Of a stretch of 64,000 nt of DNA, positions 8,825-62,040 are shown in pieces; within the stretch, counting starts at the first letter, position 1, and each line of letters begins with the position of its first letter. Origin of the DNA: Pseudomonadales bacterium (GTDB lineage Bacteria > Patescibacteriota > Microgenomatia > UBA1400 > PJMF01). The position numbers and the translations under genes were made by a program. Location of the stretch: NCBI GenBank assembly GCA_020632265.1, contig JACKFW010000001.1, positions 465,892 to 529,891 on the forward strand, in the 5' to 3' direction. The notes beneath the pieces are model-generated. The model made no database searches and was not told the DNA's origin. It saw only the letters and a list, made by a program, of their open reading frames with translations.

Positions 8825-8910
8825 GGAGGTGTCGCATAGTGGTCAATTGCACACGCCTGGAAAGCGTGATCCTTATGGATTCAAGGGTTCGAATCCCTTC
8901 ACCTCCGCCA
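8825..8910 (+). tRNA. tRNA-Ser (anticodon GGA)
   Basis: Acceptor GGAGGTG/CACCTCC, anticodon stem CACGC/GCGTG, loop CTGGAAA, long variable arm, T-arm AAGGGTTCGAATCCCTT and an encoded CCA. Its last 20 nt recur at 21791-21810. Confidence 0.75.
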
Positions 8911-10362
8911 TTTTTCTAAATCATGAGAATCATTAAGATTTTCAAGTGGTTTCCACAATTTTGTAAGTCTGGTATTGGTTATTTTTCCATCTTTAAAATC
9001 ACAGTTCCAAAGTACTGATTTTAATAAATCTCTTTTAACTTCATCATCTCCTTCTTCAAAAACTTTAGATAGCTGTACAGCGCTATTTTTTATTTCTTCA
9101 ACAAGTTCCAAAGTTTCTAGAGCCCCTTTGTTATTTTTTTGCTTAAGAAGTACAGAGAGCTGAGCAAGTTCATTTTCAAATTCAATCTTTCTTTCGTTAT
9201 AACGATCAAAAGAAATTTGTTCATCAATATAAATATTCTCAAGTCTTGTTAATTTTCTTTTAAGACCTGAAACTTGTTGTTTAATTGTGTCTTTGTTATC
9301 TTTTTTATTAGCATCCTCTTTTAATAAAGATTGTTTGTATAAATCAAATGATTTATTTGCTCTTTCTGGATCTAGCGTAAAACCTCCAAAGAAATCTTGA
9401 AACAAATCTGAAATATGTTTTTTATTCCAATAGGTTGTATGTTGGGAGCACTTTCCTTTTCCATTTGTGCATCTGTAATAAATATATTTTCCTTTAGCAA
9501 TTCCTGCTGTAACTTTACAACCACATTCAGCACAATTTAGAAAATCTCTAAAAACAAAATTAAGTTTCTGTTTTTTAGGTCTGCTTTTATTTTCAAATCT
9601 AGCTTGAACCTTATCGAACAAATCTTTAGAAATTAAAGGCTTGTGCTTGCCTTCATGGAGTTGTCCTTTTCTGTTAATCACTCCGTAATATTCAGGATTT
9701 ATTAGCTGTCTATATAAACTAGAAGTGCCAACTTTTTTACCACTTCTTGATCTATAACCTTCACTTGCCAATTTTTTAGCTAGAGTTTTAACCGAATGTT
9801 CACCACCAGAAAATAATTCAAACGCTCTTTTAATGAAAGGAGCTCTGATAGGATCTGGTTCAATTCCTTTTCCCGGCTGAATGTTTATGTAGCCGATTGG
9901 AACATAACTTGGATATTCTCCTTTTAATAGTTTGCTTTCATTCCCAGCTTTAACTTTTACTGATAGATCTCTTGAAAATTGAGATGCTAAAACAAAATCA
10001 AATCCCATGTAAAATAGTGAAGAAGCATCTTGAAAAACAGTGGTTAAAGTTCTAACTTCTTTGAGTAGTCCTGTTTCAATCATCTTAATTACGAAACCAG
10101 CATCTATTAAATTTCTAGCTAGTCTGTCAGTGTGTACCACCAAAATCGAATCTGCTTCTCCATTCTTGATTCTGTCCAACATGTTATAAAACAAAGGTCT
10201 ATTTTGATCTGTTTTAGCACTTTTTGATTCTTTGATAATATCAACAACTTCCAACTTCAAACTACTAGCTAAATCTAATAAAAGGCGTTGTTGAGTACCA
10301 AGAGATTGAGTTTGTCTAGAATCTTCTTCAGATGATTTTCTACAATAAATAAAATGTTTCAT
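8899..10362 (-). CDS. large serine recombinase (resolvase/invertase N-domain plus recombinase and zinc-ribbon domains)
   Basis: 487 aa with the N-terminal YCRKSSEEDSRQ catalytic-serine motif and ...VHTDRLARN. The C-terminal region has a Cys cluster (CAECGCK...YYRC). The 3' end overlaps the tRNA-Ser(GGA) 3' end by 12 bp. Confidence 0.8.
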   Translation of the reverse strand: MKHFIYCRKSSEEDSRQTQSLGTQQRLLLDLASSLKLEVVDIIKESKSAKTDQNRPLFYNMLDRIKNGEADSILVVHTDRLARNLIDAGFVIKMIETGLLKEVRTLTTVFQDASSLFYMGFDFVLASQFSRDLSVKVKAGNESKLLKGEYPSYVPIGYINIQPGKGIEPDPIRAPFIKRAFELFSGGEHSVKTLAKKLASEGYRSRSGKKVGTSSLYRQLINPEYYGVINRKGQLHEGKHKPLISKDLFDKVQARFENKSRPKKQKLNFVFRDFLNCAECGCKVTAGIAKGKYIYYRCTNGKGKCSQHTTYWNKKHISDLFQDFFGGFTLDPERANKSFDLYKQSLLKEDANKKDNKDTIKQQVSGLKRKLTRLENIYIDEQISFDRYNERKIEFENELAQLSVLLKQKNNKGALETLELVEEIKNSAVQLSKVFEEGDDEVKRDLLKSVLWNCDFKDGKITNTRLTKLWKPLENLNDSHDLEKWRR

Positions 10363-11237
10363 GATGAATCCTTAAGGGCAGGGAGATTTAAAGTATTATA
10401 CACACTATATTCGCAATCCCCATTTCTTTTTGTTTCAAATATATTTTTATAACTTGGTATTATTTCATTTAATCTTGTGAGAATCTTTTCTGCCTCATAT
10501 CCATATAAAGTAACAGGTTGTTTTAAATTTCTAGAACCAGAATATGCTCTTTTTCCATTGAGTCTCGGATCATCAACGCTTTTTGATAAGTACTTAGCCA
10601 TATATCCAGCTATCCTATCAAGAGTTTTTCTATTAATTTTAACAAAACCAAGCTTCCACCATTTTTCAAGTAATTTTTTAGGTATATAAGGCAAATTACA
10701 AGCTAAATGAAAATGAATAGCTCCTCGATTGTTTTTATCTTGAAATTCAATAACCCAAACATATTTTAAATTAGGATATTTATATTTTAGCAACCTTAAG
10801 AAGTTTTTTAAGTATGCTGTACACTCATCAACATTTGTAATATCTAATCCGCAATCATCTTTTAAGGTAAGAACTATTGATTTAAAAAATCCCTGAAAAT
10901 TAGTATTGATAATTCTTTTAACTTTGAAAGATCGTCTAGTTCCAGTTCTTTTTGAATATTCATCACTTCTATCTTTTTGAGATCCAAAATTATTTAAGTT
11001 TGTATGCGGGAGATTTACAACAATTGGATCTTGATAGATATACTTTTCAACAAAATCTCCTGAAACAATAATTTTTAAATTCGTAGCAAAGGGTTTTGGA
11101 ACATGAATATTGGCTGATATTCTTCGTTCTAGTTTGACGGTATTATCAAGTCTAGTAGTGTGCTCGGGCACACTAGGAAGAGCAAGACCTAAAGGTCTAG
11201 CACCAAGAATATCTTGAACATCATTTTTTAACAACAA
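10359..11237 (-). CDS. rolling-circle replication initiator, Rep_1 (pC194/pUB110-like) HUH family
   Basis: 292 aa with motif II GAIHFHLACNL (HUH) and motif III GYMAKYLSKSVDD (AKYxxK..D, active-site Tyr). Its start overlaps the recombinase start by 4 nt, suggesting an operon. Confidence 0.6.
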   Translation of the reverse strand: MLLKNDVQDILGARPLGLALPSVPEHTTRLDNTVKLERRISANIHVPKPFATNLKIIVSGDFVEKYIYQDPIVVNLPHTNLNNFGSQKDRSDEYSKRTGTRRSFKVKRIINTNFQGFFKSIVLTLKDDCGLDITNVDECTAYLKNFLRLLKYKYPNLKYVWVIEFQDKNNRGAIHFHLACNLPYIPKKLLEKWWKLGFVKINRKTLDRIAGYMAKYLSKSVDDPRLNGKRAYSGSRNLKQPVTLYGYEAEKILTRLNEIIPSYKNIFETKRNGDCEYSVYNTLNLPALKDSS

Positions 11238-24937: not shown

Positions 24938-24991
24938 AAATATATAAAAAGACCGATTTGATATTTAAAAAAATAAAGATTAAATTAAGAA

Positions 24992-50500: not shown

Positions 50501-53500
50501 GGGTTTGAAAAGATTGATAGTAATTTATATGTAGTATTTCCTGGATATCCAACTTGAATTTCAGGGTTATTTCTATCTTTAATCTGTTGAATCAAATTAA
50601 CCATAGTCTCACTGTCAAAATGTGCTAGATTAGGAGAATTGAATATGTTTACTCCATTGTCTCTGAAGAAGAACCTCACAAAATTTTTAGAATAACTAGC
50701 AAGCCAGTAATTAAGGGATTCATTTCCCAGGACGAGTGCGCCAGAATTAATTAAAAACTGTTCATAGACTAAACCTAAATGATGTATGTAACCTGATTCC
50801 AAAAGTTGTGGAGACAGTCTAATTAGTTCATCATGTATTTGTGAATAAATGTTTGCCCAATCATCCCCAATGTTTGGGTTGGTTGCCAAACCTTCGAATG
50901 ATGCAACTAGGCAAGTTGGAAATTGTTGGTCAATAATACCAGATTTATGAAGATAATCCCAATAACTCTTAATCCTTTCTTTAGCCCAATTAGTAACATC
51001 GGGATTATCAAGTTGAAATTTTTGACTAGCAGCATTAAATATATTAATATATTTTAAGTGCCTGAAAATATCTATTTTCCAAAGATTTTTACCAGACTTT
51101 TTTATTCTATGGTGTTGGGCAGTTTCAAAATCAAGGAGTAGCTGAGAGTTTTTTAAACACTGTTCAACTTTTTTTCTTACCCAATCATCTTCAAAATTAA
51201 GTTTTTTTGTTAGAAAATATTCGGATAATTCAGCATAGCCATATGACATTAGGTCATCTGACTCCTCTTTAATTAATCTAATTAATTCTGTTCTTTGAGT
51301 CTCAAAAACATTATCGATCAATCCCCGCACCCACGGATCAGAAAGATCTAACCATTCCTTCTTAACCAGTTTCGTTCCCAATCTAATTAACCGTTCTCCT
51401 TTAAATGTTTCAAAGGCATGGGTTATGTGCTCTCGAATCCAAGGGTTATCTACTGTGTCTATGCCTCGAAGCAATTCCTGATAGCCTTCAAATAGACCTT
51501 GCTGAGTATTATCAGGTAGCTTTTGACCATCCCTCATCAATGTTTTTTCTAACCTAATGTATCTGTCTAACATCTCTTGTCCAAATTTAGTCTCCCAGAA
51601 AACTGAAGATATGTTATCCGCACCGAATTTTTCTTCACGTTTATCGTACATCTGAAAATAAAGATCCATATATTTGACAACTAAATCTCGACACCATTGA
51701 TGATCGAAGTCCCAAGGTAAGCCAAATATCAGCATTGGTATAGATTGAGATAACAACTGGCGCTTGATTTCATCCAATTCGTTTTTTGATAGATGACGAC
51801 CGCTTCGATCAGTACCTGTATCTAAGGCTAGTAAGTCTTGTCGAATATTTTGTTGAATGCTGTGTAGCAATTCTCTTAGAGTAGTTCGTTCCATTTCCGA
51901 TCTATCATGGTGATCTCTACGTCCATTTTCTCTCATCATCACATGCATTTCTATCACGTCCATATATCTTGAACCGCTCATAAACTCATCCATGGTTTGG
52001 TCCCAATCAAAACTTTTTTCAATATCTCGAGAGGATTCGGCAGATTCTTCAATCTGTTGAGATGCAGACCTCTGCATTGGTACAAATTCTCCCGCTTTGA
52101 TTGAGGCAAAACCCTTAAATGAAGCTGGTTGAGGATAGCCAACGTCAATGCCATTTATCAATGCATTAAGGATGTCTATGCCTTCACTAGTTTGAATAAG
52201 TCTGTCATATACAGCACGATCTAAAAATAGGACTCCTTCATGTTCAAAATGCAGCGGATGGTATTGGTCGTCATTCTTAAATTTGGCTAGATAAAGCTGA
52301 TAAACTCTGGAACCACGCCAACGATCTGACATTTCACCGATTGATCTTGGAGAAAAATCAAACAAGGCTTCGTCAACATGAACAAAACCCTCTGCATCTA
52401 GATGAGAAAAGTCATCAGTGTTTGGAACAAACTGCGCTCCTTGTTTTTTTTCAAGTATCTCTAAATCACCTTTAATTAGTGGCCTTATTCTCCGTGATAC
52501 CATCGATACAAACATTTTGTAATCTTCTGACTTAGTGTTTCCAATATCTTTAGCAATGGCTCTAAGGACAGCTGTAAGCAGATTAGCATACCTTATTCTG
52601 TCAATTGGTTCTTCAATAGCTTTGATTTGGTCAATGATAACTTCTAGATTATATTCATATTCCTTATCTTTAAGTATTCGAGTCCAACTCTCGTCCAATG
52701 TAACAGTGTCCAGCGAAATGACTGCTTTATCTGCGGGAAAGCTACCCCTTATTCTGCCTTTAATTTGATATTGCTCTACTGTAATTCCACTAACTTGAAT
52801 ACTGAATGTTGGTTCAACAGAATTTGAAGTTGTTTCTCCTACAAGGATTTGAGCATTACTTTTCCTATCTCGACGATTAAATCTTTTTGTACCACGTCCA
52901 GGAACTAAAAATTTTTCGTATAAAACTTCTGTAGCTGTTTTTTTAGGTTGAGTAAGACCTGAGCCTCGGTCTAATACAATATAACCCTCGTCAGAGAGAT
53001 AGATATAAATATTTCCTCTTGATTTTCGTGATTCGTTATTATTAATACCTCGCAACTTATCTGCTTCTTTATTTATTCGCATTTTTCTGCCATCTGCAGT
53101 GGCGCACCAAATGTTAAAGCCTTGTGAATCAGCAAAACGCCATTTGACTTCAGCAAGCAATTTATCAGCATTCATTGGAGCATCGACTCTAATAACAGTT
53201 CCATGATTCAAGTTTCCTTCTAGCCCAAAGGGTTCGAGGACCAATTTTGCCTGTCTTTGCAATTCTTGGTCAGGATTTTGATCAGGAGCAAATAAGAACT
53301 CACCGCCACTTGCGCGAACATATCCACCAGTTGTCTCTCCAGCTTGATTTTTGCTCAGTACACTAAAGCGAGCATCTCTACGTTTAGTGAGCCACTGCCA
53401 TGTTGAAACAATTCCTTTCCCAAATCGTCCAGTTGTATCTTCTAGGTGAGCATCGCGGGCATTTGTCACAGCTTCAACTACTGTTTGTTCTAGGATAGCC

Positions 53501-54117
53501 TGTTGAAAAACATGACTAGCTTCATCAAAGGGTGTGTATTCCAGTCGTCGACGTTTCAAGATATCACCATCAACTCGACCTTCTCTTTGCCATTTATCAT
53601 ATTCCGCAGCATCTCCATGCCCGCCCTCAACATAACCAATTATTTGTTTAATAGGGTAATAGGTTTGGCTCTTTGGAAGTTGACGAGCTGTTTCAACAAG
53701 TTTTCTTCGTTGAGCGAAGGGTAGCACTCCCACCAATTCTTTTAGAGTTCTTGTATCATTCTTATCTGTGGATTTAATAAGTTTTTCAATGATTCTTAAA
53801 CTTTTTAGTAAAAATGATCTTACAAATGCCTCACCAAGTACGTCGATTATCTCCTCACCTGTTGGTTGTTGATCTTTAGTGGCTTCAGTCCTTTGGCGAT
53901 AAAGAGAGAAAAGTTGCTGATTTTCAGGGTCCAGTAAATCATGGCCAACAATTAAAACGAGATCATCATTACTAGTAATGTTTTCTATGAGTCTCTGTTT
54001 ATCAAACAAAAAGCCATGATAATAATCGACAAGTCTAGGAAGCGCATCTTCTAGTTTTGTGTTTCGCTCGGCTGACCTTGTGGATGGTAAGTATTCATTA
54101 TTTGGATTATATGACAC
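47542..54117 (-). CDS. giant (2191 aa) cytoplasmic protein with GHKL/Hsp90-like ATPase domain
   Basis: An uninterrupted 6.6-kb ORF. Residues about 1600-1800 (nt about 48700-49300) carry Bergerat-fold boxes: N-box RELLQNARDAV, G1 DQGIGMD and G2 GGIGWGFGTVAL. There is no signal peptide or TM segment. Confidence 0.7.
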   Translation of the reverse strand: MSYNPNNEYLPSTRSAERNTKLEDALPRLVDYYHGFLFDKQRLIENITSNDDLVLIVGHDLLDPENQQLFSLYRQRTEATKDQQPTGEEIIDVLGEAFVRSFLLKSLRIIEKLIKSTDKNDTRTLKELVGVLPFAQRRKLVETARQLPKSQTYYPIKQIIGYVEGGHGDAAEYDKWQREGRVDGDILKRRRLEYTPFDEASHVFQQAILEQTVVEAVTNARDAHLEDTTGRFGKGIVSTWQWLTKRRDARFSVLSKNQAGETTGGYVRASGGEFLFAPDQNPDQELQRQAKLVLEPFGLEGNLNHGTVIRVDAPMNADKLLAEVKWRFADSQGFNIWCATADGRKMRINKEADKLRGINNNESRKSRGNIYIYLSDEGYIVLDRGSGLTQPKKTATEVLYEKFLVPGRGTKRFNRRDRKSNAQILVGETTSNSVEPTFSIQVSGITVEQYQIKGRIRGSFPADKAVISLDTVTLDESWTRILKDKEYEYNLEVIIDQIKAIEEPIDRIRYANLLTAVLRAIAKDIGNTKSEDYKMFVSMVSRRIRPLIKGDLEILEKKQGAQFVPNTDDFSHLDAEGFVHVDEALFDFSPRSIGEMSDRWRGSRVYQLYLAKFKNDDQYHPLHFEHEGVLFLDRAVYDRLIQTSEGIDILNALINGIDVGYPQPASFKGFASIKAGEFVPMQRSASQQIEESAESSRDIEKSFDWDQTMDEFMSGSRYMDVIEMHVMMRENGRRDHHDRSEMERTTLRELLHSIQQNIRQDLLALDTGTDRSGRHLSKNELDEIKRQLLSQSIPMLIFGLPWDFDHQWCRDLVVKYMDLYFQMYDKREEKFGADNISSVFWETKFGQEMLDRYIRLEKTLMRDGQKLPDNTQQGLFEGYQELLRGIDTVDNPWIREHITHAFETFKGERLIRLGTKLVKKEWLDLSDPWVRGLIDNVFETQRTELIRLIKEESDDLMSYGYAELSEYFLTKKLNFEDDWVRKKVEQCLKNSQLLLDFETAQHHRIKKSGKNLWKIDIFRHLKYINIFNAASQKFQLDNPDVTNWAKERIKSYWDYLHKSGIIDQQFPTCLVASFEGLATNPNIGDDWANIYSQIHDELIRLSPQLLESGYIHHLGLVYEQFLINSGALVLGNESLNYWLASYSKNFVRFFFRDNGVNIFNSPNLAHFDSETMVNLIQQIKDRNNPEIQVGYPGNTTYKLLSIFSNPESTNVDEEVLIELTNAIFEGLDYTKKHQQSKSIVLSASIPIAIKDFFSHPNIPVSVNLVRNYSQILEQIVEISQSFVIDKVEERLASHEQQNNWATTLVGETFIACCKNPSWDFSDPQVQTLFQNVMANLMKYRLKNPEMANLAITTLVKNPSLNENLQSPPQHVQQAVSQLEQAGCTFARDFFLPQGAYLPGLLPIHENAQSVAMVADRVRDLRNVLGGEFDEIQMLYQLTKISRENPELADSLCTIRIIPLLLYEEVLTPELAEQISKLAKRGQFTVPEDPFEEYAFAKIVATVIKHGASDQESLLKNVQMMMSETSLRTLFNQMYIDIVDNPGSLSRQTDEMIDFLSSDVRVLAEEAKQELSQGRLSGVTVGQMIARKKRGADPFDTTRVVEADTESVMKAVHSQSVRWDTFVRELLQNARDAVIMNGFEVEGGQIDMRMYREMEGDNITHGVFEISDQGIGMDIDVIKNKLLQFNTRDLEKAANPLVEGGIGWGFGTVALVADEIDVVAVKNGVESITRLGIVRENDMVTDIVILADEQHPSDKYPGSTVRVKLTQDLPPEWQEKIVRNAVEHYARPISELMPISYQSENLEPPQQEVIGEISYSGETATGKQRSGTLRVALAQRQDYPWADVRRRNMSLGEVEDRNFGLTDYIHPTIVQLLENQGLVLQVDVPTWLPPTRVRAGLAVSKQEIDRLKKTVAATVYRELAQRYRKGSWYVPMLANDALYNQYYRPDYDIKTEAELFDQLLAGSTQTADAIEMGKYTDESVYNLEHLLMNIKLPDGRSLNEIRQSIIDDFRNVASSGTPLSREMVETMMKFDETPVAANESLYELYRRIDLFQRATGIIVPIDIITGDRSFADKSSLRIKLSQSLDEKPFKEFVDTYIEELTHIIEAISFYSERGRNATPLVEAFIEHVRPGLWNQVRFGEMTENQALAAIRRMVLMPEERKVYMQTHTDSKATPFRFISDRLLEMAAKNYQV

Positions 54118-54350: not shown

Positions 54351-54515
54351 ATTTCCTCTCTTAGAGGACATAACACTGCGTAGGGAGGGGGATTTACCCT
54401 CGTCATGCTCAAATTTATATCTGCTTTGCGAATTCGCTTGATCGGGCATAAACTTTCTCATCCCCACTCATATCTGTAAAAAAATAGGCTTACAGCCTAC
54501 TTTTTTACAGATGCG
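54351..54515 (-). repeat. module M copy 2: tRNA-Ser(CGA) 3'-end 17-mer, conserved about 118 bp with hairpin, then a variant-B core in place of the tRNA
   Basis: 54351-54486 is nearly identical to 57741-57875. It is then followed (reverse complement) by aaagttccaatttcatcccatgctccccgca where the genuine tRNA end sits in copy 1. The listed ORF 54258..54467 is probably spurious. Confidence 0.7.
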
Positions 54516-54658
54516 GGGAGCATGGGATGAAATTGGAACTTTTTTCTCTCAATAAACATAAGCCTATATATTTTATATTGAGTTTTTAGAAACAGCGAAA
54601 TCTTTCAGATTCATAACTAATATAAAATAACAAATTTCAATTAAAAATAGTATTAATA

Positions 54659-55450
54659 TTAAATGGGGAAAGAACAAAAAGATAGATCAGATTCAATTGC
54701 CATAAAATTTATGAAGTCCTTTTTCAAATTATCAATAGAAATACCCAATTTGTTACTTAATAGTTCTATACTTTTCTCTGGCATAAGACTATTAAGTTTC
54801 AATTTATTAGTTACATCATCCATTGACAAACCTTTATGCAAACCAAAATATGCTACTCCCAAAACTAAGTTTTGGTAGTCAGGATGGACATTAATTTTGA
54901 AAGTATTTTCACCAGCTTGAGAAACACCTTCTGAATCTAATCCTAAAACAGTTCTAACCTCTTTCTCATTTATTATAGAATTTTGATTTCCCATTTTGTT
55001 ACAAAGAAGCTTAATTGCTCTAGCAGTTCTTCCATTCCCATTTTTGTATTTATGCAACAAAATTTCCATTAAATAAAATCCATTTGCAAATCTATCCCAA
55101 TCTGAATCTTCAAAAACCTTATCAACTAAAGATCTAACTATTTCATTATAAATAACTTGATCTTTTGATGGTTTTTTCCAAACAGTAAGACCAACCTTAA
55201 ATGCAATAATAGTATCTTTACTAGAATGAATATCTGTTTTTTTATCTATATTTAAAAGTTTTCTATTAAGCAAATCATCAAAACCGCTAATAATCCCCAC
55301 TAACCCTTGAATATCTCCCTCACTTAAGAAAGCTTTTAATATTTTTAAAGTGAATTGTAATGTCTCTGTCATGCGAAGAACAGATTCTTCACGAAACTCT
55401 TTTGAGTCTTGATCATATCTACTACTTATTTTTTCATCTTCATTTATCAT
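54659..55450 (-). CDS. Fic/Doc-family protein (cassette cargo)
   Basis: 263 aa with HKYKNGNGRTARA matching the Fic core HxFx(D/E)GNGRxxR, with N at the acidic position. It is preceded directly by a full junction unit. Confidence 0.6.
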   Translation of the reverse strand: MINEDEKISSRYDQDSKEFREESVLRMTETLQFTLKILKAFLSEGDIQGLVGIISGFDDLLNRKLLNIDKKTDIHSSKDTIIAFKVGLTVWKKPSKDQVIYNEIVRSLVDKVFEDSDWDRFANGFYLMEILLHKYKNGNGRTARAIKLLCNKMGNQNSIINEKEVRTVLGLDSEGVSQAGENTFKINVHPDYQNLVLGVAYFGLHKGLSMDDVTNKLKLNSLMPEKSIELLSNKLGISIDNLKKDFINFMAIESDLSFCSFPI

Positions 55451-55610
55451 AAAAATTTTTAGGTTCTAAATTCCCTACACCTATCCCAATTTTATCACAT
55501 TTCTAGCCTGGAGTTCCATCATGCGGAGGTGAAGGGATTCACGATTCGCTCGTTTCACTCACTCACATGCACTAGGCAGGCTCGCTTTGTTCGCTTGCCG
55601 TCGCGAACCA
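55451..55610 (-). repeat. junction unit whose core is the genuine tRNA-Ser(GGA) 3' end plus att flank (inverted relative to the tRNA-Ser(GGA) locus)
   Basis: The reverse complement reads ...tagtgcatgtgag...gcgaatcgtgaatcccttcacctccgca-tgatggaactccaggctagaaatgtgataaaattgggataggtgtagggaatttagaacctaaaaattttt-ATG(Fic). It is homologous to 21745-21810. Confidence 0.7.
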
Positions 55611-55639
55611 TAAATATTTAATCAACATTCAACCTACAC

Positions 55640-55707
55640 AAACGTACAAAAAAATAGGCTTACAGCCTACTTTTTTACAGACGCGGAGCATACGGGTCTG
55701 GAACCCG
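55640..55707 (-). repeat. partial module M hairpin plus variant-C core repeat (GGTTCCAGACCCnnATGCTCCGC)
   Basis: aaaaataggcttacagcctacttttttacagacgcggagcatacgggtctggaacccg. Confidence 0.6.
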
Positions 55708-55714
55708 TGCGTCG

Positions 55715-56137
55715 TTATAAATTCAAAGTGACATCTTCTAAGTTTTCAAATCTTCCATCCTGATATGGTGGATAACAAATTTCAAAAACAACTAAGTTCT
55801 CATCTGATTGCCACTGCATGATATCTCCTACTTCAATTGTGTGTGAAAATCCTTCGGTTTCTGGGCTTACTTCAAATACTAATTTTTCACCATTTGGCTT
55901 AAGTATAATAAGTCTACCCTTTCCAGAAATATAACCTTCTATTGTTTCTTGGCCAGTAAGAACTTTTTGAGGTTTAGTTTTTTTACCAGACTCAATATAA
56001 ATAACTCCCAGATCTCTTTCTTTTGTTTCTGGGTGAAGATATACGTCACAGACAACTCCAGGAAAAACTTCGGATGAAACAATAAATTTAGTTATGAGCG
56101 TTTTGTGCTTATACGTAAAGGTCTCAAGTCTTTTCAT
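55715..56137 (-). CDS. hypothetical protein, possible cupin-like (cassette)
   Basis: 140 aa, beta-rich, with no confident motif. Confidence 0.35.
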   Translation of the reverse strand: MKRLETFTYKHKTLITKFIVSSEVFPGVVCDVYLHPETKERDLGVIYIESGKKTKPQKVLTGQETIEGYISGKGRLIILKPNGEKLVFEVSPETEGFSHTIEVGDIMQWQSDENLVVFEICYPPYQDGRFENLEDVTLNL

Positions 56138-56173
56138 TGGGAATATTTTATCATGAATAAATCACACTCTTCG

Positions 56174-56275
56174 TCACTGTAGTTAGAATACTAGGATGCG
56201 GAGCATGTGGGTCTGGAACCCGGTTATCACTATAGTTCGAATCCTAGGATGCGGAGCATGTGGGTCTGGAACCCA
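56174..56275 (-). repeat. two tandem variant-C junction repeats
   Basis: gtcactgtagttagaatactaggatgcggagcatgtgggtctggaaccc and tcactatagttcgaatcctaggatgcggagcatgtgggtctggaaccc. The reverse complement core is ggttccagacccacatgctccgca. Confidence 0.7.
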
Positions 56276-56296
56276 GATATCTATGTAGCACTATTC

Positions 56297-56491
56297 TTAT
56301 GCTTCTGAAATATTTCCCATTTTTTCGTAGTTTATGAATGCCTGCTTACTTACTGTAATAGATTCATTTGTTTTATCTTGAACTACAGTATATGAATCAG
56401 AATATTCAGATTCACTAACAGATAAATATCGAAGAGGTTCTAATTTAAGTGAACCCCAATCAAAATGCTTTTTAACCTGGTATTTTTTCAT
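56297..56491 (-). CDS. small hypothetical protein (cassette)
   Basis: 64 aa, bounded by variant-C repeats. Confidence 0.3.
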   Translation of the reverse strand: MKKYQVKKHFDWGSLKLEPLRYLSVSESEYSDSYTVVQDKTNESITVSKQAFINYEKMGNISEA

Positions 56492-56502
56492 TTTTTTAAG
56501 TC

Positions 56503-56560
56503 CGTCACTGTAGTTAGAATCCTAGGATGCGGAGCATGTGGGTCTGGAACCAGTGTGTCG
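56503..56560 (-). repeat. variant-C junction repeat
   Basis: gtcactgtagttagaatcctaggatgcggagcatgtgggtctggaaccagtgtgtcgctata. Confidence 0.7.
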
Positions 56561-57229
56561 CTATAACTGATAACAATTTCCACCCACATCTACATAATTA
56601 CCGTCGTACGGCTTTGCATGAATTACTGAACCCTGCCCATGCATAATTGTTAATTCACTCTGTAGTAGATGTGCTAGCTGCATTGATCCAGATCCATTAG
56701 CTTCATCTTCAGAAATTCCCCAATCAGGAGCAAAAGTTCTGGCTCTAATGATCTTGTTTTTTTTATCTTGCCATGCCCATACTAAGGAATGTTTGTAATC
56801 TTGTATTTGTTTTTGCGTTAGATTTTCAACTTCTTCATAACTCTTAATTTGAATGTGTTGCCAATTAGGAGTAATTGACAATGGACCTCGAATCCAAAAA
56901 AAGTCATTTTGGTATATAGAAACTTTTTCATCAGAACAAATAAGATTTTTGGGTGGATTTTTAGTGTGTTGATATAAAAACCAAGCTGTTCCTAAAATTG
57001 CATGACCAGCAAATTTAACTGGTTTAAGTGGATTGAAAATTTGAACTTTACCTTGATTGATATTATCTATAAATACGGTTTCACTATAGTTTAGTTGTTT
57101 GGCAATTTTTTGACGTTGAGATGGTTCCAACTTTTCTTGCTCATCAATAATAATACCCACAGGATTACCAAAATTGTTGTCTGAGTTAACAAATACACTA
57201 ACAGTAAAAACATTTTGTTTTTCGAGCAT
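56561..57229 (-). CDS. PhzF/DapF-fold isomerase-like protein (cassette)
   Basis: 222 aa with the N-terminal FTVSVFVNSDNNFGNPVGIIID and FAGHAILGTAWFL resembling the PhzF-family signatures. Confidence 0.45.
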   Translation of the reverse strand: MLEKQNVFTVSVFVNSDNNFGNPVGIIIDEQEKLEPSQRQKIAKQLNYSETVFIDNINQGKVQIFNPLKPVKFAGHAILGTAWFLYQHTKNPPKNLICSDEKVSIYQNDFFWIRGPLSITPNWQHIQIKSYEEVENLTQKQIQDYKHSLVWAWQDKKNKIIRARTFAPDWGISEDEANGSGSMQLAHLLQSELTIMHGQGSVIHAKPYDGNYVDVGGNCYQL

Positions 57230-57261
57230 CTGAAGTCATTATATAACTACAAAGAAGATTT

Positions 57262-57323
57262 ATCACTGTAATTCGAATCCTAGGATGCGGAGCATGTGGG
57301 TCTGGAACCAGTGTGTCGCTATA
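57262..57323 (-). repeat. variant-C junction repeat
   Basis: tcactgtaattcgaatcctaggatgcggagcatgtgggtctggaaccagtgtgtcgctata. Confidence 0.7.
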
Positions 57324-57326
57324 GTT

Positions 57327-57524
57327 TTATTTGAAAATCGCAACCATACTTACCAACAAAGCTAGCCCACTAATAATTACAGCTATCCAGGATCTCAAGG
57401 AATCCATTTTTTCAGTTTCTTCGTTTACCCTAATAAGATTGAGCGTTGCCTCTATCTCATTAGGTTGTTCGCCTTGTTGTTCCAACAATTTTTTTATAGC
57501 AAGAATTTTTTTACTATCTTTCAT
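57327..57524 (-). CDS. small membrane-anchored protein (cassette)
   Basis: 65 aa with a C-terminal TM helix. The strand was chosen to match the array orientation, though a plus-strand ORF of equal length overlaps. Confidence 0.25.
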   Translation of the reverse strand: MKDSKKILAIKKLLEQQGEQPNEIEATLNLIRVNEETEKMDSLRSWIAVIISGLALLVSMVAIFK

Positions 57525-57647
57525 AGATTAACACTAATTTGCATTTGAATTCAAAAGTTGTTGTCCCGTGTGCAAATGCGCCCAGCAGAGGTAATTGTAC
57601 TTGAAATGGTACAAATGGGACAGTATAAAAAGGGAGTGTCTCACAAT

Positions 57648-57680
57648 AAAAACACCTCAGAGAATTTCTGAGGTGTTTTT
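57648..57680. terminator. bidirectional rho-independent terminator
   Basis: aaaaacacctcagagaatttctgaggtgttttt is a perfect 11-bp stem flanked by an A-run and a T-run. Confidence 0.6.
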
Positions 57681-57740
57681 ACATAGATCACCAACCCATT
57701 CAACCATATTAGACGGGTCTGACATAACTTTTCAACTATT

Positions 57741-57875
57741 GCGGAGGGAGGGGGATTTACCCTCGTCATGCTCAAATTTATATCTGCTTTGCGAATTCGC
57801 TTGATCGGGCATAAACTTTCTCATCCCCACTCATATCTGTAAAAAAATAGGCTTACAGCCTACTTTTTTACAGAC
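57741..57875 (-). repeat. module M copy 1 immediately downstream of tRNA-Ser(CGA), ending in a 17-bp direct copy of the tRNA 3' end
   Basis: Reading 5' to 3' on the minus strand, the tRNA 3' end ...ccccctccctccgc is followed by gtctgtaaaaaagtaggctgtaagcctattttttt (hairpin), then about 80 bp, then aaatccccctccctccgc (57741-57758). Confidence 0.7.
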
Positions 57876-57876
57876 G

Positions 57877-57962
57877 CGGAGGGAGGGGGATTCGAACCCC
57901 CGTGAGTAAAATACTCCCAAGCTTTTCGAGAGCTGGCCGTTAAACCACTCCGACATCCCTCC
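57877..57962 (-). tRNA. tRNA-Ser (anticodon CGA)
   Basis: Acceptor GGAGGGA/TCCCTCC, anticodon loop CTCGAAA on a 4-5 bp stem, long variable arm, and T-arm GGGGGTTCGAATCCCCC. Confidence 0.6.
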
Positions 57963-59002: not shown

Positions 59003-59086
59003 GGAGAGCTGGCAGAGTGGTCAATCGCAACGGTCTTGAAAACCGTGACCTTTATGGTCTCGTGGGTTCGAATCCCTCGCTCTCCG
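59003..59086 (+). tRNA. tRNA-Ser (anticodon TGA)
   Basis: Acceptor GGAGAGC/GCTCTCC, anticodon stem ACGGT/ACCGT, loop CTTGAAA, long variable arm, and a T-arm with one T-T mismatch. Confidence 0.6.
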
Positions 59087-59094
59087 CAAATAAC

Positions 59095-59769
59095 ATGACT
59101 ACACATCAACTCACAGAAAAATTAGTTGCAGATATTGAAAAAAAGTCTGATGATCATTCATTGTTTATTGTTGCCATCAGTGGACTAGATGCTTCAGGAA
59201 AATCTCAAATAGCTGAAGTTTTAGCAAGGAAACTTGAAGATAGAAAAAAAAATGTTCTCAGTGTGTCAGGGGATTCATTTCAATTTCCACGTGAGTACAA
59301 GGAGGATTTTCAGGAAAAAGACTGGACCACTCAACACATAAGAAGAACAATCAATTTTGAAAAAATGACCACTGAATTATTCCAGCCTCTGCAAGCTTTG
59401 CCAAATACTTTGCAATTAGATATTGTCAATTATGACACAAAAGAAAAAGTAAAAACTGCTGTCTCATTACAATACCCGCTAATTCTCATTGTTGAGAGTA
59501 TTTATCTCTTTTCTCATAAAATGATGCCATACTTTGATTATAAAATTTTTCTTGATATTTCAATTGCAGAAGCTTTAAAGAGAGCAACTTTACGAAAAAG
59601 AGATTTGGAGCTTTATGGTAGTGCAGATGGGATTCAGCAAAAATATGAAACTAAAAACTTTCCGGGATATCTCGAATTTGATAAGCAGGAGAACCCAAAA
59701 AGCCTTTCAGATGTTGTCATAGATAATAATGATTGGCAAAACCCAGTAATAATTAAAGGTGAGTTATAA
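59095..59769 (+). CDS. uridine kinase/phosphoribulokinase-family P-loop kinase
   Basis: The listed ORF 59017..59769 begins inside the tRNA. The likely start is ATG 59095 (MTTHQLTEK...) with Walker A ISGLDASGKSQ. Confidence 0.55.
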   Translation: MTTHQLTEKLVADIEKKSDDHSLFIVAISGLDASGKSQIAEVLARKLEDRKKNVLSVSGDSFQFPREYKEDFQEKDWTTQHIRRTINFEKMTTELFQPLQALPNTLQLDIVNYDTKEKVKTAVSLQYPLILIVESIYLFSHKMMPYFDYKIFLDISIAEALKRATLRKRDLELYGSADGIQQKYETKNFPGYLEFDKQENPKSLSDVVIDNNDWQNPVIIKGEL

Positions 59770-59777
59770 CGACGCAC

Positions 59778-59802
59778 GGGTTCCAGAACTGGGTGATCCG
59801 CA
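59778..59802 (+). repeat. variant-C core repeat (plus orientation)
   Basis: gggttccagaactgggtgatccgca. The preceding ttataacgacgcacgggttccaga is identical to the reverse complement of 55687-55710. Confidence 0.6.
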
Positions 59803-59821
59803 ACAATAAACAAATTTACAT

Positions 59822-60310
59822 TTATTGTGATATTTTATTTAAAACTCCCTTTTCCAAACGATCAATAAGCAACCAAATAACCATAGATACTATCATCGCA
59901 ATCCAAAGCATAAAAAACAAGAAAGTAAATTCTATACCTTGAGTAATTGTAATAATGAAAAATCCTACAATATTTAATACAAATATGAATCCAATAACTA
60001 ACTTTTTAGAAACTTTAATATTAATATTAAAAACTCGTTCAGCGATAAATAAAAATATTGCATAAATAAAGTATAATTTATAAAAAATATTCATTACATC
60101 ATCTTTAGTGTGCAGACCATCAGGAACATGTAATTGCTTAAAGAATAAAGTATCTGCACCAAGTATATTTAATGACATAAGAATAATGACAAAATTAGTA
60201 ATAACTATGAAAGTTTCTGGAGCTTTTTTTAAAAAAAATAAAAAATATGAAAAAATATTTAATAACAACTTTATGCCAGAATTTAGTGAATCTAATTTTA
60301 TTGAAACCAT
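59822..60310 (-). CDS. hypothetical polytopic membrane protein
   Basis: 162 aa with 4 TM helices. Confidence 0.4.
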   Translation of the reverse strand: MVSIKLDSLNSGIKLLLNIFSYFLFFLKKAPETFIVITNFVIILMSLNILGADTLFFKQLHVPDGLHTKDDVMNIFYKLYFIYAIFLFIAERVFNINIKVSKKLVIGFIFVLNIVGFFIITITQGIEFTFLFFMLWIAMIVSMVIWLLIDRLEKGVLNKISQ

Positions 60311-60393
60311 ATAAAATCAGTATAACATTGCTTTAGACTAACTCTAAGTAAGTTTTGACTCAGATATTGAAAACAACTTTTTCCCAATTGATT

Positions 60394-60426
60394 AAAGTTC
60401 TAATTTCATCCCATGCTCCCTAGCAC
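60394..60426 (+). repeat. variant-B core repeat
   Basis: aaagttctaatttcatcccatgctccctagca. Confidence 0.6.
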
Positions 60427-60452
60427 ATACATCTTTATGCTACAATTTTTAT

Positions 60453-61091: not shown

Positions 61092-61141
61092 TTTTTCTTC
61101 AGGAAATACTCCAATTTTATCCCCCACTCTTTGTAAATGAA

Positions 61142-61954: not shown

Positions 61955-62012
61955 AAAAACTTGTTGATTTTCATTTATTTTATAATTTTACATGATTTAT
62001 TTGACAAAACGC

Positions 62013-62040
62013 AATTCCAATTTGATCCCACACTCTCTTC
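62013..62040 (+). repeat. degenerate variant-B core repeat
   Basis: aattccaatttgatcccacactctcttc. Confidence 0.45.

What the first reader, a model, noticed from the sequence alone, without database searches (positions are those of the whole stretch)
54351..57962. Second cassette array on the minus strand anchored at tRNA-Ser(CGA), bounded by direct repeats of the tRNA 3' end, carrying a Fic/Doc protein and a PhzF-like protein
Downstream of tRNA-Ser(CGA), which is on the minus strand, lie five small minus-strand genes. Each is separated by variant-C repeats, ggttccagacccacatgctccgca in gene orientation, with one tandem duplicate at 56174-56275. The block is closed by a 17-bp copy of the tRNA end at 54351-54368. 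It has the same polarity rule as array 1 (genes co-directional with the anchoring tRNA) but no recombinase of its own. This implies action in trans by the 8899..10362 enzyme.
Basis: partly seen in the sequence, partly recalled or inferred. Interest (0 to 1): 0.85.

Follow-up and report, generated by a model that had tools for sequence, protein, structure and literature searches.

The report
Gene-cassette array anchored at tRNA-Ser
Downstream of a serine tRNA gene this small-genome (Patescibacteria-type) bacterium stores a row of single-gene modules, each ending in a mimic of the tRNA's 3' end. The same modules and sites turn up in about 90 related species, so this looks like an undescribed, integron-like way of collecting and swapping genes, probably driven by a large serine recombinase.

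Summary
Downstream of tRNA-Ser(CGA) (57876-57962, minus strand) lie nine segments that each end in ...CTCCGC. Five carry one small co-directional gene with its own promoter, one is a 53-nt empty unit, and three are gene-free 'hairpin + tRNA-end copy' modules. The closing tRNA-end copy is at 54378-54394, not 54351-54368. A second copy lies at 57741-57757. Not all separators are variant C: the Fic-like cassette is bounded by a tRNA-Ser(GGA)-like copy and a variant-A arm.

Comparison with other genomes shows recombination units rather than terminators. Left arms (real tRNA-Ser ends, A, B, C) and right arms (R1, R2, R3, hairpin) combine freely. A two-gene cassette is 99.2% identical in two species, with breakpoints at CTCCGC(A), and those two arrays differ by exactly one cassette. 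A 10-cassette A-type array carries a homolog of the Fic-like gene.

The recombinase link is strengthened but unproven. LSR-Rep elements that are 69-92% identical to the window's sit at the same junction of tRNA-Ser(CGA), GGA, TGA and 'ACT', and always end in an A arm. More distant relatives sit on the tmRNA gene.

I found no prior description. Interest is high: a new variant of tDNA-anchored integrative elements, possibly a serine-recombinase analogue of integrons.

The parts
57876..57962 (-). tRNA-Ser(CGA), the anchor of the array. Its 3' end ...CCCTCCCTCCGC is the attB-type left arm.
   Evidence: ARAGORN and Rfam tRNA, 45 bits. An LSR-Rep element is inserted at exactly this junction in the orthologous tRNA of L127 and in L128.
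57741..57875 (-). H1 module with no ORF: the tRNA's terminator hairpin (57836-57874), about 80 nt of filler, and a copy of the tRNA 3' end (57741-57757).
   Evidence: The same hairpin sequence in the H3 copy (55640-55725) folds with z = -4.4; H1 itself was not folded.
57287..57740 (-). Cassette 1. It contains the R3 right arm/promoter (TTGAAA-18-TAATAT, 57735-57706), a hairpin at 57647-57681, a 'Family I' promoter-like element (~57562-57647), the 65-aa ORF 57524-57327 with a C-terminal hydrophobic tail, and a variant-C arm ending at 57287.
   Evidence: Many loci match 57562-57647. R3 recurs after C arms or tRNA ends in other genomes.
56529..57286 (-). Cassette 2: R1 right arm (ATCCTAGGATTCGAATTACAGTGA), a TATAAT promoter, the PhzF-family ORF 57229-56561, and a variant-C arm ending at 56529.
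   Evidence: Pfam PF02567, E=1.4e-25.
56251..56528 (-). Cassette 3: R1 arm, the 64-aa ORF 56491-56297, and a variant-C arm ending at 56251.
   Evidence: L109 matches at 82.6% nt, and the match stops exactly at the junction, 56251.
56198..56250 (-). 53-nt empty unit (R1 arm + C arm, no ORF). This is the 'tandem duplicate'.
   Evidence: A related R1+C empty unit (81% identity over a 78-nt match) directly follows tRNA-Ser(TGA) in L079.
55683..56197 (-). Cassette 4: R1 arm, the 140-aa ORF 56137-55715, and a variant-C' arm (2 mismatches) ending at 55683.
   Evidence: A homolog with 75% aa identity lies inside a C-bounded multi-gene unit in L125.
55523..55682 (-). H3 module with no ORF: the same terminator hairpin (55648-55681), filler, and a tRNA-Ser(GGA)-like end copy (55523-55549).
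54513..55522 (-). Cassette 5: R2 right arm/promoter module (55451-55522, TGTGATAAAAT), the 263-aa Fic-like ORF 55450-54659, and a variant-A arm (54513-54542).
   Evidence: Motif and fold evidence for the Fic-like call. A 54% aa homolog is a single-gene A-type cassette in the 10-site array of L136.
54378..54512 (-). H2 module: a second copy of H1 (two differences), ending in the tRNA-end copy 54378-54394. The A|hairpin junction at 54513/54512 is of the attR type made by LSR-Rep elements.
   Evidence: The attR in L145 is an A arm followed by a terminator hairpin.
8899..10362 (-). Large serine recombinase, the candidate trans-acting enzyme. It has Resolvase, Recombinase and Zn-ribbon domains and an N-terminal YCRKSS motif. 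Its stop codon lies inside the 3' end of tRNA-Ser(GGA).
   Evidence: Pfam, translation, family and genomic contexts.
10359..11237 (-). Rolling-circle Rep (REP_ORF2-G2P / RepSA-like) of the LSR element.
   Evidence: Pfam. It is syntenic with the LSR in L127, L145, L154 and L157.
8825..8910 (+). tRNA-Ser(GGA), the insertion site of the LSR-Rep element in this genome (attL junction at 8908/8909).

Best explanation
Array 2 is a tRNA-Ser-anchored stack of small integrative gene cassettes, built by site-specific recombination at the last bases of the tRNA gene (core CTCCGC, usually followed by A).

Structure of a cassette. Each one has a right arm that usually contains its own promoter (types R1, R2, R3). 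It then has one (sometimes two) accessory genes. It ends in a ~30-nt left arm that mimics the T-arm and 3' acceptor strand of a tRNA-Ser (types A, B, C, or decayed true copies).

Proposed mechanism.
- A recombinase that recognises tRNA-Ser-like 3' ends can insert a circular cassette at any real tRNA-Ser gene, or at any arm left by an earlier insertion.
- Cassettes therefore pile up co-directionally behind the tRNA and can be excised, lost or exchanged between species.
- The most likely enzyme is the LSR of the small LSR + rolling-circle Rep element that sits at tRNA-Ser(GGA) in this window, acting in trans.

Origin of the block. The 3.36-kb block 54513-57875 probably entered, or was duplicated, as one composite unit at the tRNA|terminator-hairpin junction. 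That would explain the 152-nt flanking direct repeat.

What is shown and what is inferred.
- Shown: the anatomy of the array; the shuffling of left and right arms; the cassette-precise breakpoints between species; and the use of this tRNA junction by the LSR element.
- Inferred: that the LSR also moves the C-, B- and A-type cassettes; the exact crossover position; and the composite-circle history.
For: 1. Anatomy. Nine segments each end in CTCCGC. Five carry a single co-directional ORF, four of them with a promoter-like element upstream.
2. Not chance. The C core has 5 copies against 0 expected, and the tRNA-end 17-mer has 4 against 0.
3. Arm shuffling in the window. The observed junctions are tRNA|H, S-like|R3, C|R1 (four times), C'|H, S(GGA)-like|R2 and A|H, plus A|R2 and B|R2 in array 1.
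4. Arm shuffling elsewhere. Other genomes show real tRNA-Ser(TGA)|R1, tRNA-Ser(GGA)|R1, tRNA-Ser(GCT)|R1, tRNA-Ser(GCT)|R3 and C|R3.
5. Distribution. The C core lies in 89 low-GC, mostly Patescibacteria loci. There, 25 of 43 tRNA genes are tRNA-Ser. Sites are on the same strand as a tRNA-Ser 25 times against 4. The 86 inter-site intervals have a median of 766 bp and mostly hold 0-2 ORFs.
6. Cassette-precise mobility. L070 and L013 are different species representatives. They share 928 nt at 99.2% identity, running from the C core to the next CTCCGC(A), and that segment is one cassette. The sequence beyond the 3' junction is unrelated, and the arrays differ by exactly one extra cassette.
7. Further shared cassettes. 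An Hsp20 cassette is 87-91% identical in three species, once directly at tRNA-Ser(GGA). The 64-aa cassette homology with L109 stops at the junction. L136 has 10 A-type sites with single ORFs between them, including a homolog of the Fic-like gene.
8. Not terminators or RNA elements. C|R1 units have fold z-scores of -0.26 to +0.62, no T-run and no Rfam match.
9. LSR link: same junction. LSR-Rep elements with 69-92% identical LSRs are inserted at the same junction of tRNA-Ser CGA (L127 and L128; L127 is the ortholog of the array-2 anchor), GGA, TGA and 'ACT'.
10. LSR link: mobility. The L127 element is 83% nt identical to the window's while the neighbouring chromosomal gene is 72%.
11. LSR link: A arm. 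In all four elements where it could be read, the first site distal to the LSR-Rep genes (taken as the element's end) is an A-type arm. In L145 that arm is followed by a terminator hairpin, the same junction type as 54513 in array 2.
12. LSR link: relatives. LSRs at 34-42% identity sit on the tmRNA 3' end in the same geometry.
13. No rival enzyme seen. No tyrosine-recombinase family appears among the listed Pfam hits for 43 other window ORFs. None recurs among 150 ORFs next to C sites.
Against: - No experiment or read-level evidence shows circles, excision, or the LSR acting on C-type, or any gene-only, cassette.
- In the A-type array of L136 the sequence to the right of the junction is not conserved.
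- I found no significant dyad symmetry in C|R1 units or in the reconstructed LSR attP. Canonical LSR sites have two quasi-symmetric half-sites.
- Canonical LSRs recombine only attP x attB and leave hybrid sites inert, so stacking requires a relaxed enzyme (Ccr-like) or a directionality factor.
- Most C-site loci show no recombinase within the 8-kb tile.
- The Pfam summaries list only the top 25 families, so a weak tyrosine-recombinase hit cannot be strictly excluded.
- Sites sit upstream of a same-strand tRNA-Ser about as often as downstream within a tile (12 against 13). This probably reflects clustering of tRNA-Ser genes.
- The near-identical H1 and H2 modules could also come from unequal homologous recombination.
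Confidence: 0.62

Rival explanations
1. The array is built by site-specific recombination at CTCCGC, but a different, still unidentified recombinase encoded elsewhere in the genome does it. Candidates include a tyrosine recombinase or Xer-type enzyme, or an enzyme that recognises only the left arm, as integron integrases recognise attC. The LSR would move only its own element.
For: - All sites share a common 6-7-bp core, CTCCGC(A). That resembles a tyrosine-recombinase overlap region more than the 2-bp LSR crossover.
- Only the left arm is conserved in the L136 array.
- The sites show no significant dyad symmetry.
- The right arm of the LSR element itself (CATTTTTCTAAATCATGAG...) is unrelated to R1, R2 and R3.
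- Most loci with sites have no LSR nearby.
Against: - No tyrosine recombinase was detected in the 64-kb window, and none recurs among 150 site-adjacent ORFs.
- The LSR element and the cassettes use the same junction and the same broad tRNA-Ser isoacceptor range.
- The LSR element carries the same A-type arm as the cassettes.
- The C|R1 unit shows no stable hairpin of the attC kind.
Confidence: 0.22
2. There are no independently mobile cassettes. The array is the decayed residue of several complete tRNA-targeting integrative elements that integrated one after another. Their integrase and replication genes were then deleted, and the repeats were reshuffled by homologous recombination.
For: - Accretion of elements at tRNA genes, leaving partial tRNA copies and degraded remnants, is well known, for example in Prochlorococcus tycheposon islands (bioRxiv 10.1101/2020.12.28.424599).
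- H1 and H2 are nearly identical and could mediate homologous recombination.
- The A arm after the Fic-like gene is the arm type of LSR-Rep elements.
Against: - Array 2 has no LSR or Rep pseudogene remnants.
- Units are as short as 53-760 bp and hold a single gene with its own promoter.
- A gene-only cassette is 99.2% identical in two species, with breakpoints at the core, and a one-cassette indel separates the two arrays.
- L136 has 10 consecutive single-gene units with uniform arms.
Confidence: 0.1
3. The repeats are not recombination sites. They are RNA-level elements (terminators, tRNA-like processing or stabilising signals) placed after each gene and conserved for expression.
For: - The arms resemble a tRNA T-arm plus 3' acceptor strand, and some copies in other genomes end in ...GCCA.
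- The H modules do contain a strong bidirectional terminator hairpin.
Against: - C|R1 units have no significant fold, no T-run and no Rfam match.
- Inter-species homology blocks begin and end at the CTCCGC core.
- Left and right arms recombine combinatorially.
- Empty 53-nt units exist.
- Mobile LSR elements insert at the same position.
Confidence: 0.04

Closest known systems
Integrons (IntI tyrosine integrase, attI, attC-bounded gene cassettes)
   Same: - Arrays of mostly single-gene, co-directional cassettes about 0.5-1 kb long, each ending in a conserved 3' site.
- The crossover lies at the distal edge of that site.
- Cassettes are shared between species and show gain/loss polymorphism.
- The cargo is small accessory enzymes (GNAT, NUDIX, toxin-like proteins).
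- The recombinase is not part of the cassette.
   Different: - No IntI or other tyrosine recombinase was found, and there is no attI/Pc platform. The anchor is a tRNA-Ser gene.
- The sites mimic a tRNA 3' end and show no attC-type hairpin.
- Cassettes usually bring their own promoter.
- The candidate enzyme is a large serine recombinase.
tDNA-anchored genomic islands and tycheposon islands of Prochlorococcus (Hackl et al., bioRxiv 10.1101/2020.12.28.424599)
   Same: - Integration at the 3' end of tRNA genes.
- Successive integrations push older elements distally.
- Partial tRNA copies lie between units.
- Replication genes sit on the autonomous elements.
- Cargo is flexible genes.
   Different: - Tycheposons are defined by a deep-branching tyrosine recombinase, and each integrase is specific for one tRNA.
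- Here the element family uses an LSR and hits at least four tRNA-Ser isoacceptors.
- Units are single genes bounded by diverged tRNA-end mimics (A/B/C), not true partial tRNAs.
SCC / SCCmec composite islands (Ccr large serine recombinases at the 3' end of rlmH/orfX) (from my own knowledge)
   Same: - An LSR-driven element inserts at the 3' end of a conserved gene.
- The integration-site sequence is regenerated, so further elements stack in tandem.
- Recombinase-less units can be mobilised in trans.
   Different: - The target is a protein-coding gene, not a tRNA gene.
- Units are multi-kb, not single-gene.
- There is no tRNA mimicry.
- The host range is staphylococci.
CIMEs and accretion-mobilisation (ICESt1/ICESt3 family) (from my own knowledge)
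   Same: att-flanked modules lack a recombination module. They are stacked next to an autonomous element at the same site and are presumably mobilised in trans.
   Different: These use tyrosine integrases, target the 3' end of fda, involve few and large modules, and are not widespread single-gene arrays.
AICEs such as pSAM2 (integrase + RepSA rolling-circle replication, tRNA target) (from my own knowledge; the RepSA Pfam hit is)
   Same: A small integrative element combines a site-specific integrase with a RepSA-like rolling-circle replication initiator and inserts into a tRNA gene.
   Different: - pSAM2 uses a tyrosine integrase and has transfer genes.
- It has no cassette arrays.
- Its hosts are actinomycetes.

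Membership tests
Integron | intI gene (tyrosine recombinase with the IntI-specific insertion) adjacent to the array | tested here: not met
   Array 2 has no recombinase. No Phage_integrase family appears among the Pfam hits listed for 43 other window ORFs.
Integron | attC sites: imperfect inverted repeats (R''-L'' / L'-R') that fold into a hairpin in single-stranded DNA | tested here: not met
   The 61-nt C|R1 units fold no better than shuffles on either strand (z -0.26 to +0.62). They show no significant dyad symmetry.
Integron | Array of co-directional, mostly promoterless single-gene cassettes expressed from Pc | tested here: inconclusive
   The cassettes are single-gene and co-directional, but they carry their own promoter-like modules R2 and R3 and no Pc platform is present.
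tDNA-integrated genomic island (Islander-type) | Intact tRNA gene at one end and a displaced direct-repeat copy of its 3' end at the other | tested here: met
   The tRNA-Ser(CGA) end GCGGAGGGAGGGGGATT is repeated at 57741-57757 (exact) and 54378-54394 (1 mismatch), against 0 expected.
tDNA-integrated genomic island (Islander-type) | Integrase gene inside the island next to the tRNA | tested here: not met
   Array 2 has none. One is present at tRNA-Ser(GGA) in array 1, and at the orthologous tRNA-Ser(CGA) in L127.
Large serine recombinase integrative element | LSR with Resolvase, Recombinase and Zn-ribbon domains and a catalytic serine | tested here: met
   This applies to ORF 8899-10362: Pfam PF00239, PF07508 and PF13408 and an N-terminal YCRKSS motif. 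It does not apply to array 2 itself.
Large serine recombinase integrative element | attP/attB of about 40-50 bp with quasi-symmetric half-sites around a 2-bp crossover; attL and attR inert without a directionality factor | tested here: inconclusive
   - The crossover is confined to CTCCGC(A).
- The left half-site is conserved.
- The right half is conserved only within types R1-R3 and not in L136.
- Symmetry is not significant.
- Activity on hybrid sites cannot be tested here.
Tycheposon | Hallmark deep-branching tRNA-associated tyrosine recombinase, one integrase clade per tRNA | tested here: not met
   The recombinase is an LSR. One LSR clade (at least 69% identity) uses tRNA-Ser CGA, GGA, TGA and 'ACT'.
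Fic/Doc family (263-aa cassette protein) | Fic motif HxFx(D/E)GNGRxxR within a Fic fold | tested here: inconclusive
   - H133-K-Y-K-N-G-N-G-R-T-A-R144 is present, with H, N, G, R and R invariant in 22 homologs.
- The AF2 model has pLDDT 85.
- Nearly all of the top ~45 Foldseek PDB hits are Fic or Doc proteins, but they are weak (best E 0.046, TM 0.35).
- There is no Pfam or PDB sequence hit.
PhzF family (222-aa cassette protein) | Match to Pfam PhzC-PhzF above the gathering score | tested here: met
   PF02567: 90.8 bits against a cut-off of 27, E=1.4e-25. The protein is shorter (222 aa) than the 281-position model.

The most novel reading that the evidence does not exclude
Patescibacteria (CPR) possess a phylum-wide, integron-like gene-capture system that is not based on a tyrosine integrase. 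A clade of large serine recombinases, carried on tiny LSR + rolling-circle-Rep episomes, recognises the T-arm/acceptor 3' end of tRNA-Ser (and tmRNA in relatives). It also recognises tRNA-end mimics (arms A, B, C). In this way it inserts, stacks, excises and exchanges promoter-bearing single-gene cassettes behind all tRNA-Ser genes. This would be the main route of accessory-gene flux in these ultra-small genomes.
Probability: 0.4. Interest if true: 0.9.

Novelty: new variant of a known kind. Interest (0 to 1): 0.8.

Why it matters
Patescibacteria have tiny genomes and few recognised mobile elements. A recent survey of horizontal transfer in 125 Patescibacteria genomes reports many islands but does not mention tRNA, integrase, recombinase or cassette anywhere in its text (PMC12455944).

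The arrays found here give a concrete, testable mechanism with four components:
- a defined core (CTCCGC);
- defined arm types;
- a candidate enzyme;
- dozens of natural cassettes, including NUDIX, GNAT, histidine phosphatase, Hsp20, flavodoxin, Fic-like, PhzF-like and defence-type genes.

Three further points follow.
1. This would be a second, independently evolved cassette-array architecture beside integrons.
2. Use of t(m)RNA genes by serine integrases was considered unreported and in need of proof in 2020 (PMC7192596). A whole LSR clade dedicated to tRNA-Ser and tmRNA 3' ends would be of interest for recombinase biology and for genome engineering, because it would be a multi-target LSR with a conserved natural landing site.
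3. Practically, the repeats explain why assemblies of these genomes break here: contigs L001-L006 and L157-L160 all end at the sites.

Tried and rejected
1. Prochlorococcus/tycheposon origin. I considered this because of the low GC and the tRNA repeats. I rejected it because the site hits and gene content are Patescibacteria-type and the recombinase is an LSR, not the hallmark tyrosine enzyme.
2. Terminator or RNA-element reading of the C units. Rejected on fold z-scores, the absence of T-runs and the absence of Rfam matches.
3. By eye I saw dyad symmetry between the C arm and R1, which would fit an LSR attP. A shuffle test did not support it. Only A|R2 at 16503 showed a significant inverted A-like arm (1 of 2000 shuffles), and I left that uninterpreted.
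4. Strain-level polymorphism using contigs that encode identical proteins. The metagenome contigs L001-L007 are 100% identical to the window and simply break at the repeats. The variants L149/L153 versus L145 break inside a gene rather than at a site. Neither was informative.
5. Phage or viral carriage of the sites. In IMG/VR the C pattern gave only coding-sequence coincidences and the A pattern gave nothing.
6. A conserved partner gene or recombinase next to C sites. Clustering 768 ORFs around the sites found only diverse cargo families, and the Pfam summary agrees.
7. A free circular form of the LSR element with an intact attP. The ~5-kb contigs L157 and L158 end in the A arm and in the tRNA end (the integrated form or an assembly break). 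No attP junction was recovered.
8. Literature searches for a prior description found nothing relevant. I searched Patescibacteria with serine recombinase, integron/attC and genomic islands, and searched the motif strings themselves.

Full report
**1. What is in the sequence**

The window is a low-GC (about 31%) bacterial chromosome segment carrying dnaG, ahcY, proS and tatC. The 263-aa protein of the finding is identical to an NCBI MAG protein (locus tag H6772_02565) on a 1.08-Mb contig. That MAG is labelled 'Pseudomonadales bacterium'. Everything related that I retrieved is Patescibacteria/CPR-type, so I treat the label as doubtful.

The basic features check out:
- tRNA-Ser(CGA) is at 57876-57962 on the minus strand.
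- Five minus-strand ORFs follow it.
- The variant-C core occurs five times against zero expected and is embedded in a 61-nt unit. A tandem pair lies at 56174-56287.
A second, exact copy is at 57741-57757.

**2. Anatomy**

I anchored every repeat on the shared ending ...CTCCGC. Read in tRNA orientation, this gives nine consecutive segments:

| Segment | Coordinates | Content |
|---|---|---|
| H1 | 57875-57741 | tRNA terminator hairpin, filler, tRNA-end copy |
| Cassette 1 | 57740-57287 | R3 promoter arm, hairpin, 'Family I' promoter-like element, 65-aa ORF, C arm |
| Cassette 2 | 57286-56529 | R1 arm, PhzF-family ORF, C arm |
| Cassette 3 | 56528-56251 | R1 arm, 64-aa ORF, C arm |
| Empty unit | 56250-56198 | 53-nt R1 + C unit, no ORF |
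| Cassette 4 | 56197-55683 | R1 arm, 140-aa ORF, C' arm |
| H3 | 55682-55523 | the same hairpin, filler, tRNA-Ser(GGA)-like end copy |
| Cassette 5 | 55522-54513 | R2 promoter module, 263-aa ORF, variant-A arm |
| H2 | 54512-54378 | second copy of H1 |

H1 and H2 differ at only two positions. Together with the adjoining arms they make the 152-nt direct repeat that brackets the block.

The left arms all look like diverged tRNA-Ser 3' ends, that is, a T-arm-like GGTTCnAnnCC followed by an acceptor-like strand. Arm A resembles tRNA-Ser(TGA), arm B resembles GGA, arm C resembles GCT, and the 'S-like' copies match the neighbouring tRNA.

The same grammar runs through array 1 (8.9-25.7 kb) and through a short array after tRNA-Ser(TGA) at 59-62 kb.

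**3. Recombination sites, not RNA signals**

The C|R1 units fold no better than shuffled sequence, have no T-run and match no Rfam family. Only the H hairpin behaves as a terminator.

Left and right arms occur in many combinations:
- in the window: tRNA|H, S|R3, C|R1, C'|H, S(GGA)|R2, A|H, A|R2 and B|R2;
- in other genomes: real tRNA-Ser(TGA)|R1, tRNA-Ser(GGA)|R1, tRNA-Ser(GCT)|R1, tRNA-Ser(GCT)|R3 and C|R3.

This combinatorial pattern is what site-specific recombination at one fixed point produces.

**4. Distribution**

One scan of species-representative genomes with the C core returned more than 119 hits.
- 89 of the fetched loci are low-GC and carry the full C core ending in CTCCGC. Most come from Microgenomates/Paceibacteria-type MAGs.
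- In these 607 kb, 25 of 43 tRNA genes are tRNA-Ser, of all four anticodons. Seven more are the tRNA-Arg(GCG) that neighbours tRNA-Ser(CGA).
- Sites lie on the same strand as a tRNA-Ser 25 times against 4.
- The 86 intervals between consecutive sites have a median length of 766 bp. Fourteen are empty, 43 hold one ORF and 22 hold two.
- ORFs are co-directional with the sites 77 times against 35.
- The cargo is typical accessory material: NUDIX, histidine phosphatases, GNATs, methyltransferases, AbiEii/OLD-type, RHH, Hsp20 and flavodoxin.

**5. Direct evidence that cassettes are discrete mobile units**

- L070 (BroJett025 genome) and L013 (a different species representative) share 928 nt at 99.2% identity. 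This segment runs from a C core, through R1 and two genes (148 and 109 aa), to the next CTCCGC(A), so it is one cassette. The upstream arms differ a few bases before the core, and the downstream sequences are unrelated.
- The two arrays also share the preceding block at 93% identity and differ by exactly one additional cassette (163 aa) bounded by C|R1 junctions.
- A second copy of the two-gene cassette in the same genome (L048) is 81% identical, and that homology ends exactly at the junction.
- An Hsp20 cassette is 87-91% identical in three species. In L042 it sits directly at tRNA-Ser(GGA).

For array 2's own genes:
- The 64-aa cassette has an 82.6% nt match in L109 that stops at junction 56251.
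- The Fic-like gene has a 54% aa homolog that forms a single-gene cassette in a 10-site A-type array (L136).
- The 140-aa gene has a 75% aa homolog inside a C-bounded unit.

These comparisons confine the crossover to CTCCGC(A).

**6. The recombinase**

Array 2 has no recombinase and no LSR or Rep remnants. The only recombinase detected in the window is the LSR at 8899-10362. It has Resolvase, Recombinase and Zn-ribbon domains and a YCRKSS motif. It forms a small element with a rolling-circle Rep (10359-11237), inserted at tRNA-Ser(GGA).

Relatives of this element are inserted at the identical junction of several tRNA-Ser genes:

| Locus | LSR identity | Insertion site |
|---|---|---|
| L127 | 92% | tRNA-Ser(CGA), next to tRNA-Arg(GCG) and tRNA-Ser(TGA); the ortholog of the array-2 anchor |
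| L128 | 73% | a tRNA-Ser(CGA)-type end |
| L134 | 70% | tRNA-Ser(GGA) |
| L157/L158 | 69% | a tRNA-Ser(GGA)-type end (the contigs stop about 20 nt into the tRNA) |
| L154-L156 | 77% | tRNA-Ser(TGA) |
| L145-L153 | 82% | a tRNA-Ser called 'ACT' |

Further observations:
- The L127 element is 83% nt identical to the window's, while the neighbouring chromosomal gene is 72% identical. This fits horizontal mobility.
- The first site distal to the LSR-Rep genes, which I take as the element's end, is an A-type arm in all four elements where it could be read. In L145 the arm is followed by a terminator hairpin, the same A|hairpin junction that closes the Fic-like cassette at 54513.
- More distant relatives (34-42% identity) occupy the tmRNA 3' end in the same geometry.
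- The family is large, with 395 proteins at E<=1e-30.

So the enzyme family demonstrably uses this tRNA junction. It has the same broad tRNA-Ser range as the cassettes, and its elements carry a cassette-type arm.

What is missing is any direct link to C-type units. Several observations sit uneasily with a canonical LSR:
- A-type arrays have no conserved right half-site.
- The sites show no significant dyad symmetry.
- The enzyme would need to act on hybrid sites.

**7. History of the block (inference)**

The structure tRNA|H1...A|H2|flank, with near-identical H copies, is most simply explained as follows. A composite circle carrying H plus the five cassettes, with junction A|H, integrated at the tRNA|H junction. 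Unequal homologous recombination is an alternative.

**8. Protein labels**

- The PhzF-family assignment is supported.
- The Fic assignment rests on an invariant HxYxNGNGRxxR motif and on weak but consistent Fic-fold matches to a confident model. Sequence profiles find nothing.
- The 65-, 64- and 140-aa proteins have no assignable family.

**9. Comparison with known systems and novelty**

The system works like an integron (cassette stacking and exchange) but fails the integron membership tests. It has no IntI, no attC hairpin, and cassettes that carry their own promoters.

It is a tDNA-anchored island in the Islander sense and resembles tycheposon islands. It differs in three ways:
- it lacks their hallmark tyrosine recombinase;
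- it is not tied to one tRNA;
- its units are single genes ending in tRNA-end mimics.

Mechanistically the nearest LSR precedent is SCC stacking by Ccr recombinases (from my own knowledge).

On prior knowledge:
- Serine-integrase use of t(m)RNA genes was described in 2020 as previously unreported and rare, 14 of 297 (PMC7192596).
- I found no paper describing these sites or arrays in Patescibacteria.

**10. Verdict**

I rate it a new variant of a known kind, tDNA-anchored site-specific integrative elements.

My probability estimates are:
- about 0.4 that it is a phylum-wide serine-recombinase counterpart of integrons;
- about 0.9 that the array was built by site-specific recombination at CTCCGC;
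- about 0.55 that the window's LSR family is the enzyme.

Noticed in passing
window 8825-25700 (+) and 59003-62040 (+): Two further arrays use the same junction grammar. Array 1 lies behind tRNA-Ser(GGA): the LSR-Rep element followed by about 12 A/B-type cassettes. A short array lies behind tRNA-Ser(TGA): a C'-like site at ~59762-59802 and A-like sites at 60397-60424 and 62014-62040.
   Followed up: partly
window 8899-8910: The LSR ORF ends ...EKWRR*, with its last three codons and stop codon inside the 3' end of tRNA-Ser(GGA). The crossover therefore lies within the recombinase gene, and its C-terminus must differ between the integrated and excised forms. Homologs range from 487 to 565 aa.
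   Followed up: partly
window 11540-11675; L127 4660-4790: A GC-rich block of about 135 nt lies upstream of the Rep operon and is conserved between the two LSR-Rep elements, while the adjacent cargo differs. It may be the replication origin or a non-coding RNA.
   Followed up: no
L130-L133 (e.g. L130 503-2355): LSRs 34-42% identical to the window's enzyme sit with their 3' end overlapping the 3' end of the tmRNA gene (...CGCCTCCAC). This is the same geometry as at tRNA-Ser.
   Followed up: partly
window ~57562-57647; many loci (e.g. L076, L062, L027): A promoter-like element of about 100 nt (TTGTCYCATTTGTCYCATTT ... TAnAAT ... ATGGGACA) is conserved across dozens of species directly upstream of the C arm, often with no ORF in between. 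In the window it precedes the 65-aa ORF. Its role is unexplained; it could be an outward promoter, an operator or a small RNA.
   Followed up: partly
window 16477-16545: The R2 module contains an inverted copy of the A arm about 20-40 nt to the right of the junction (score 13; 1 of 2000 shuffles). This was the only significant dyad symmetry found around any site.
   Followed up: no
L106 1596-1733, L127 166-323, window 25634-25790: 'H' modules (terminator hairpin, about 90 nt, and a copy of the adjacent tRNA's last ~17 nt) follow tRNA-Ser genes or A arms in several genomes. The end copy matches whichever tRNA-Ser is adjacent. They may serve as a protected landing pad.
   Followed up: partly
window 46890-46913 (-), 22825-22926 and 46806-46907: A degenerate C-like site lies between proS and the 2191-aa gene. 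It sits within or next to a 102-nt repeat shared with array 1 at 75% identity.
   Followed up: no
window 47542-54117 (-): A 2191-aa ORF starts immediately beyond the array. It contains two QNARDA-type motifs reminiscent of GHKL/sacsin-like ATPase domains. It was not analysed.
   Followed up: no
L145 7453-7540 and relatives: ARAGORN calls the tRNA targeted by the 82%-identical LSR element tRNA-Ser with anticodon ACT, which is unusual for bacteria.
   Followed up: no
L154/L156 versus L155: An identical LSR and an identical tRNA-Ser(TGA) are followed by different sequence on the 5' side of the tRNA in different metagenomes. The same element-tRNA junction therefore exists in at least two chromosomal contexts.
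   Followed up: no
record titles of L013, L017, L018, L036 etc.; P0001: Many MAGs with Patescibacteria-type sequence, including the window's source, are labelled 'Pseudomonadales' or 'Gammaproteobacteria' in their public records. One example is isolate HK-STAS-PATE-16. These are probably taxonomy-label errors.
   Followed up: no
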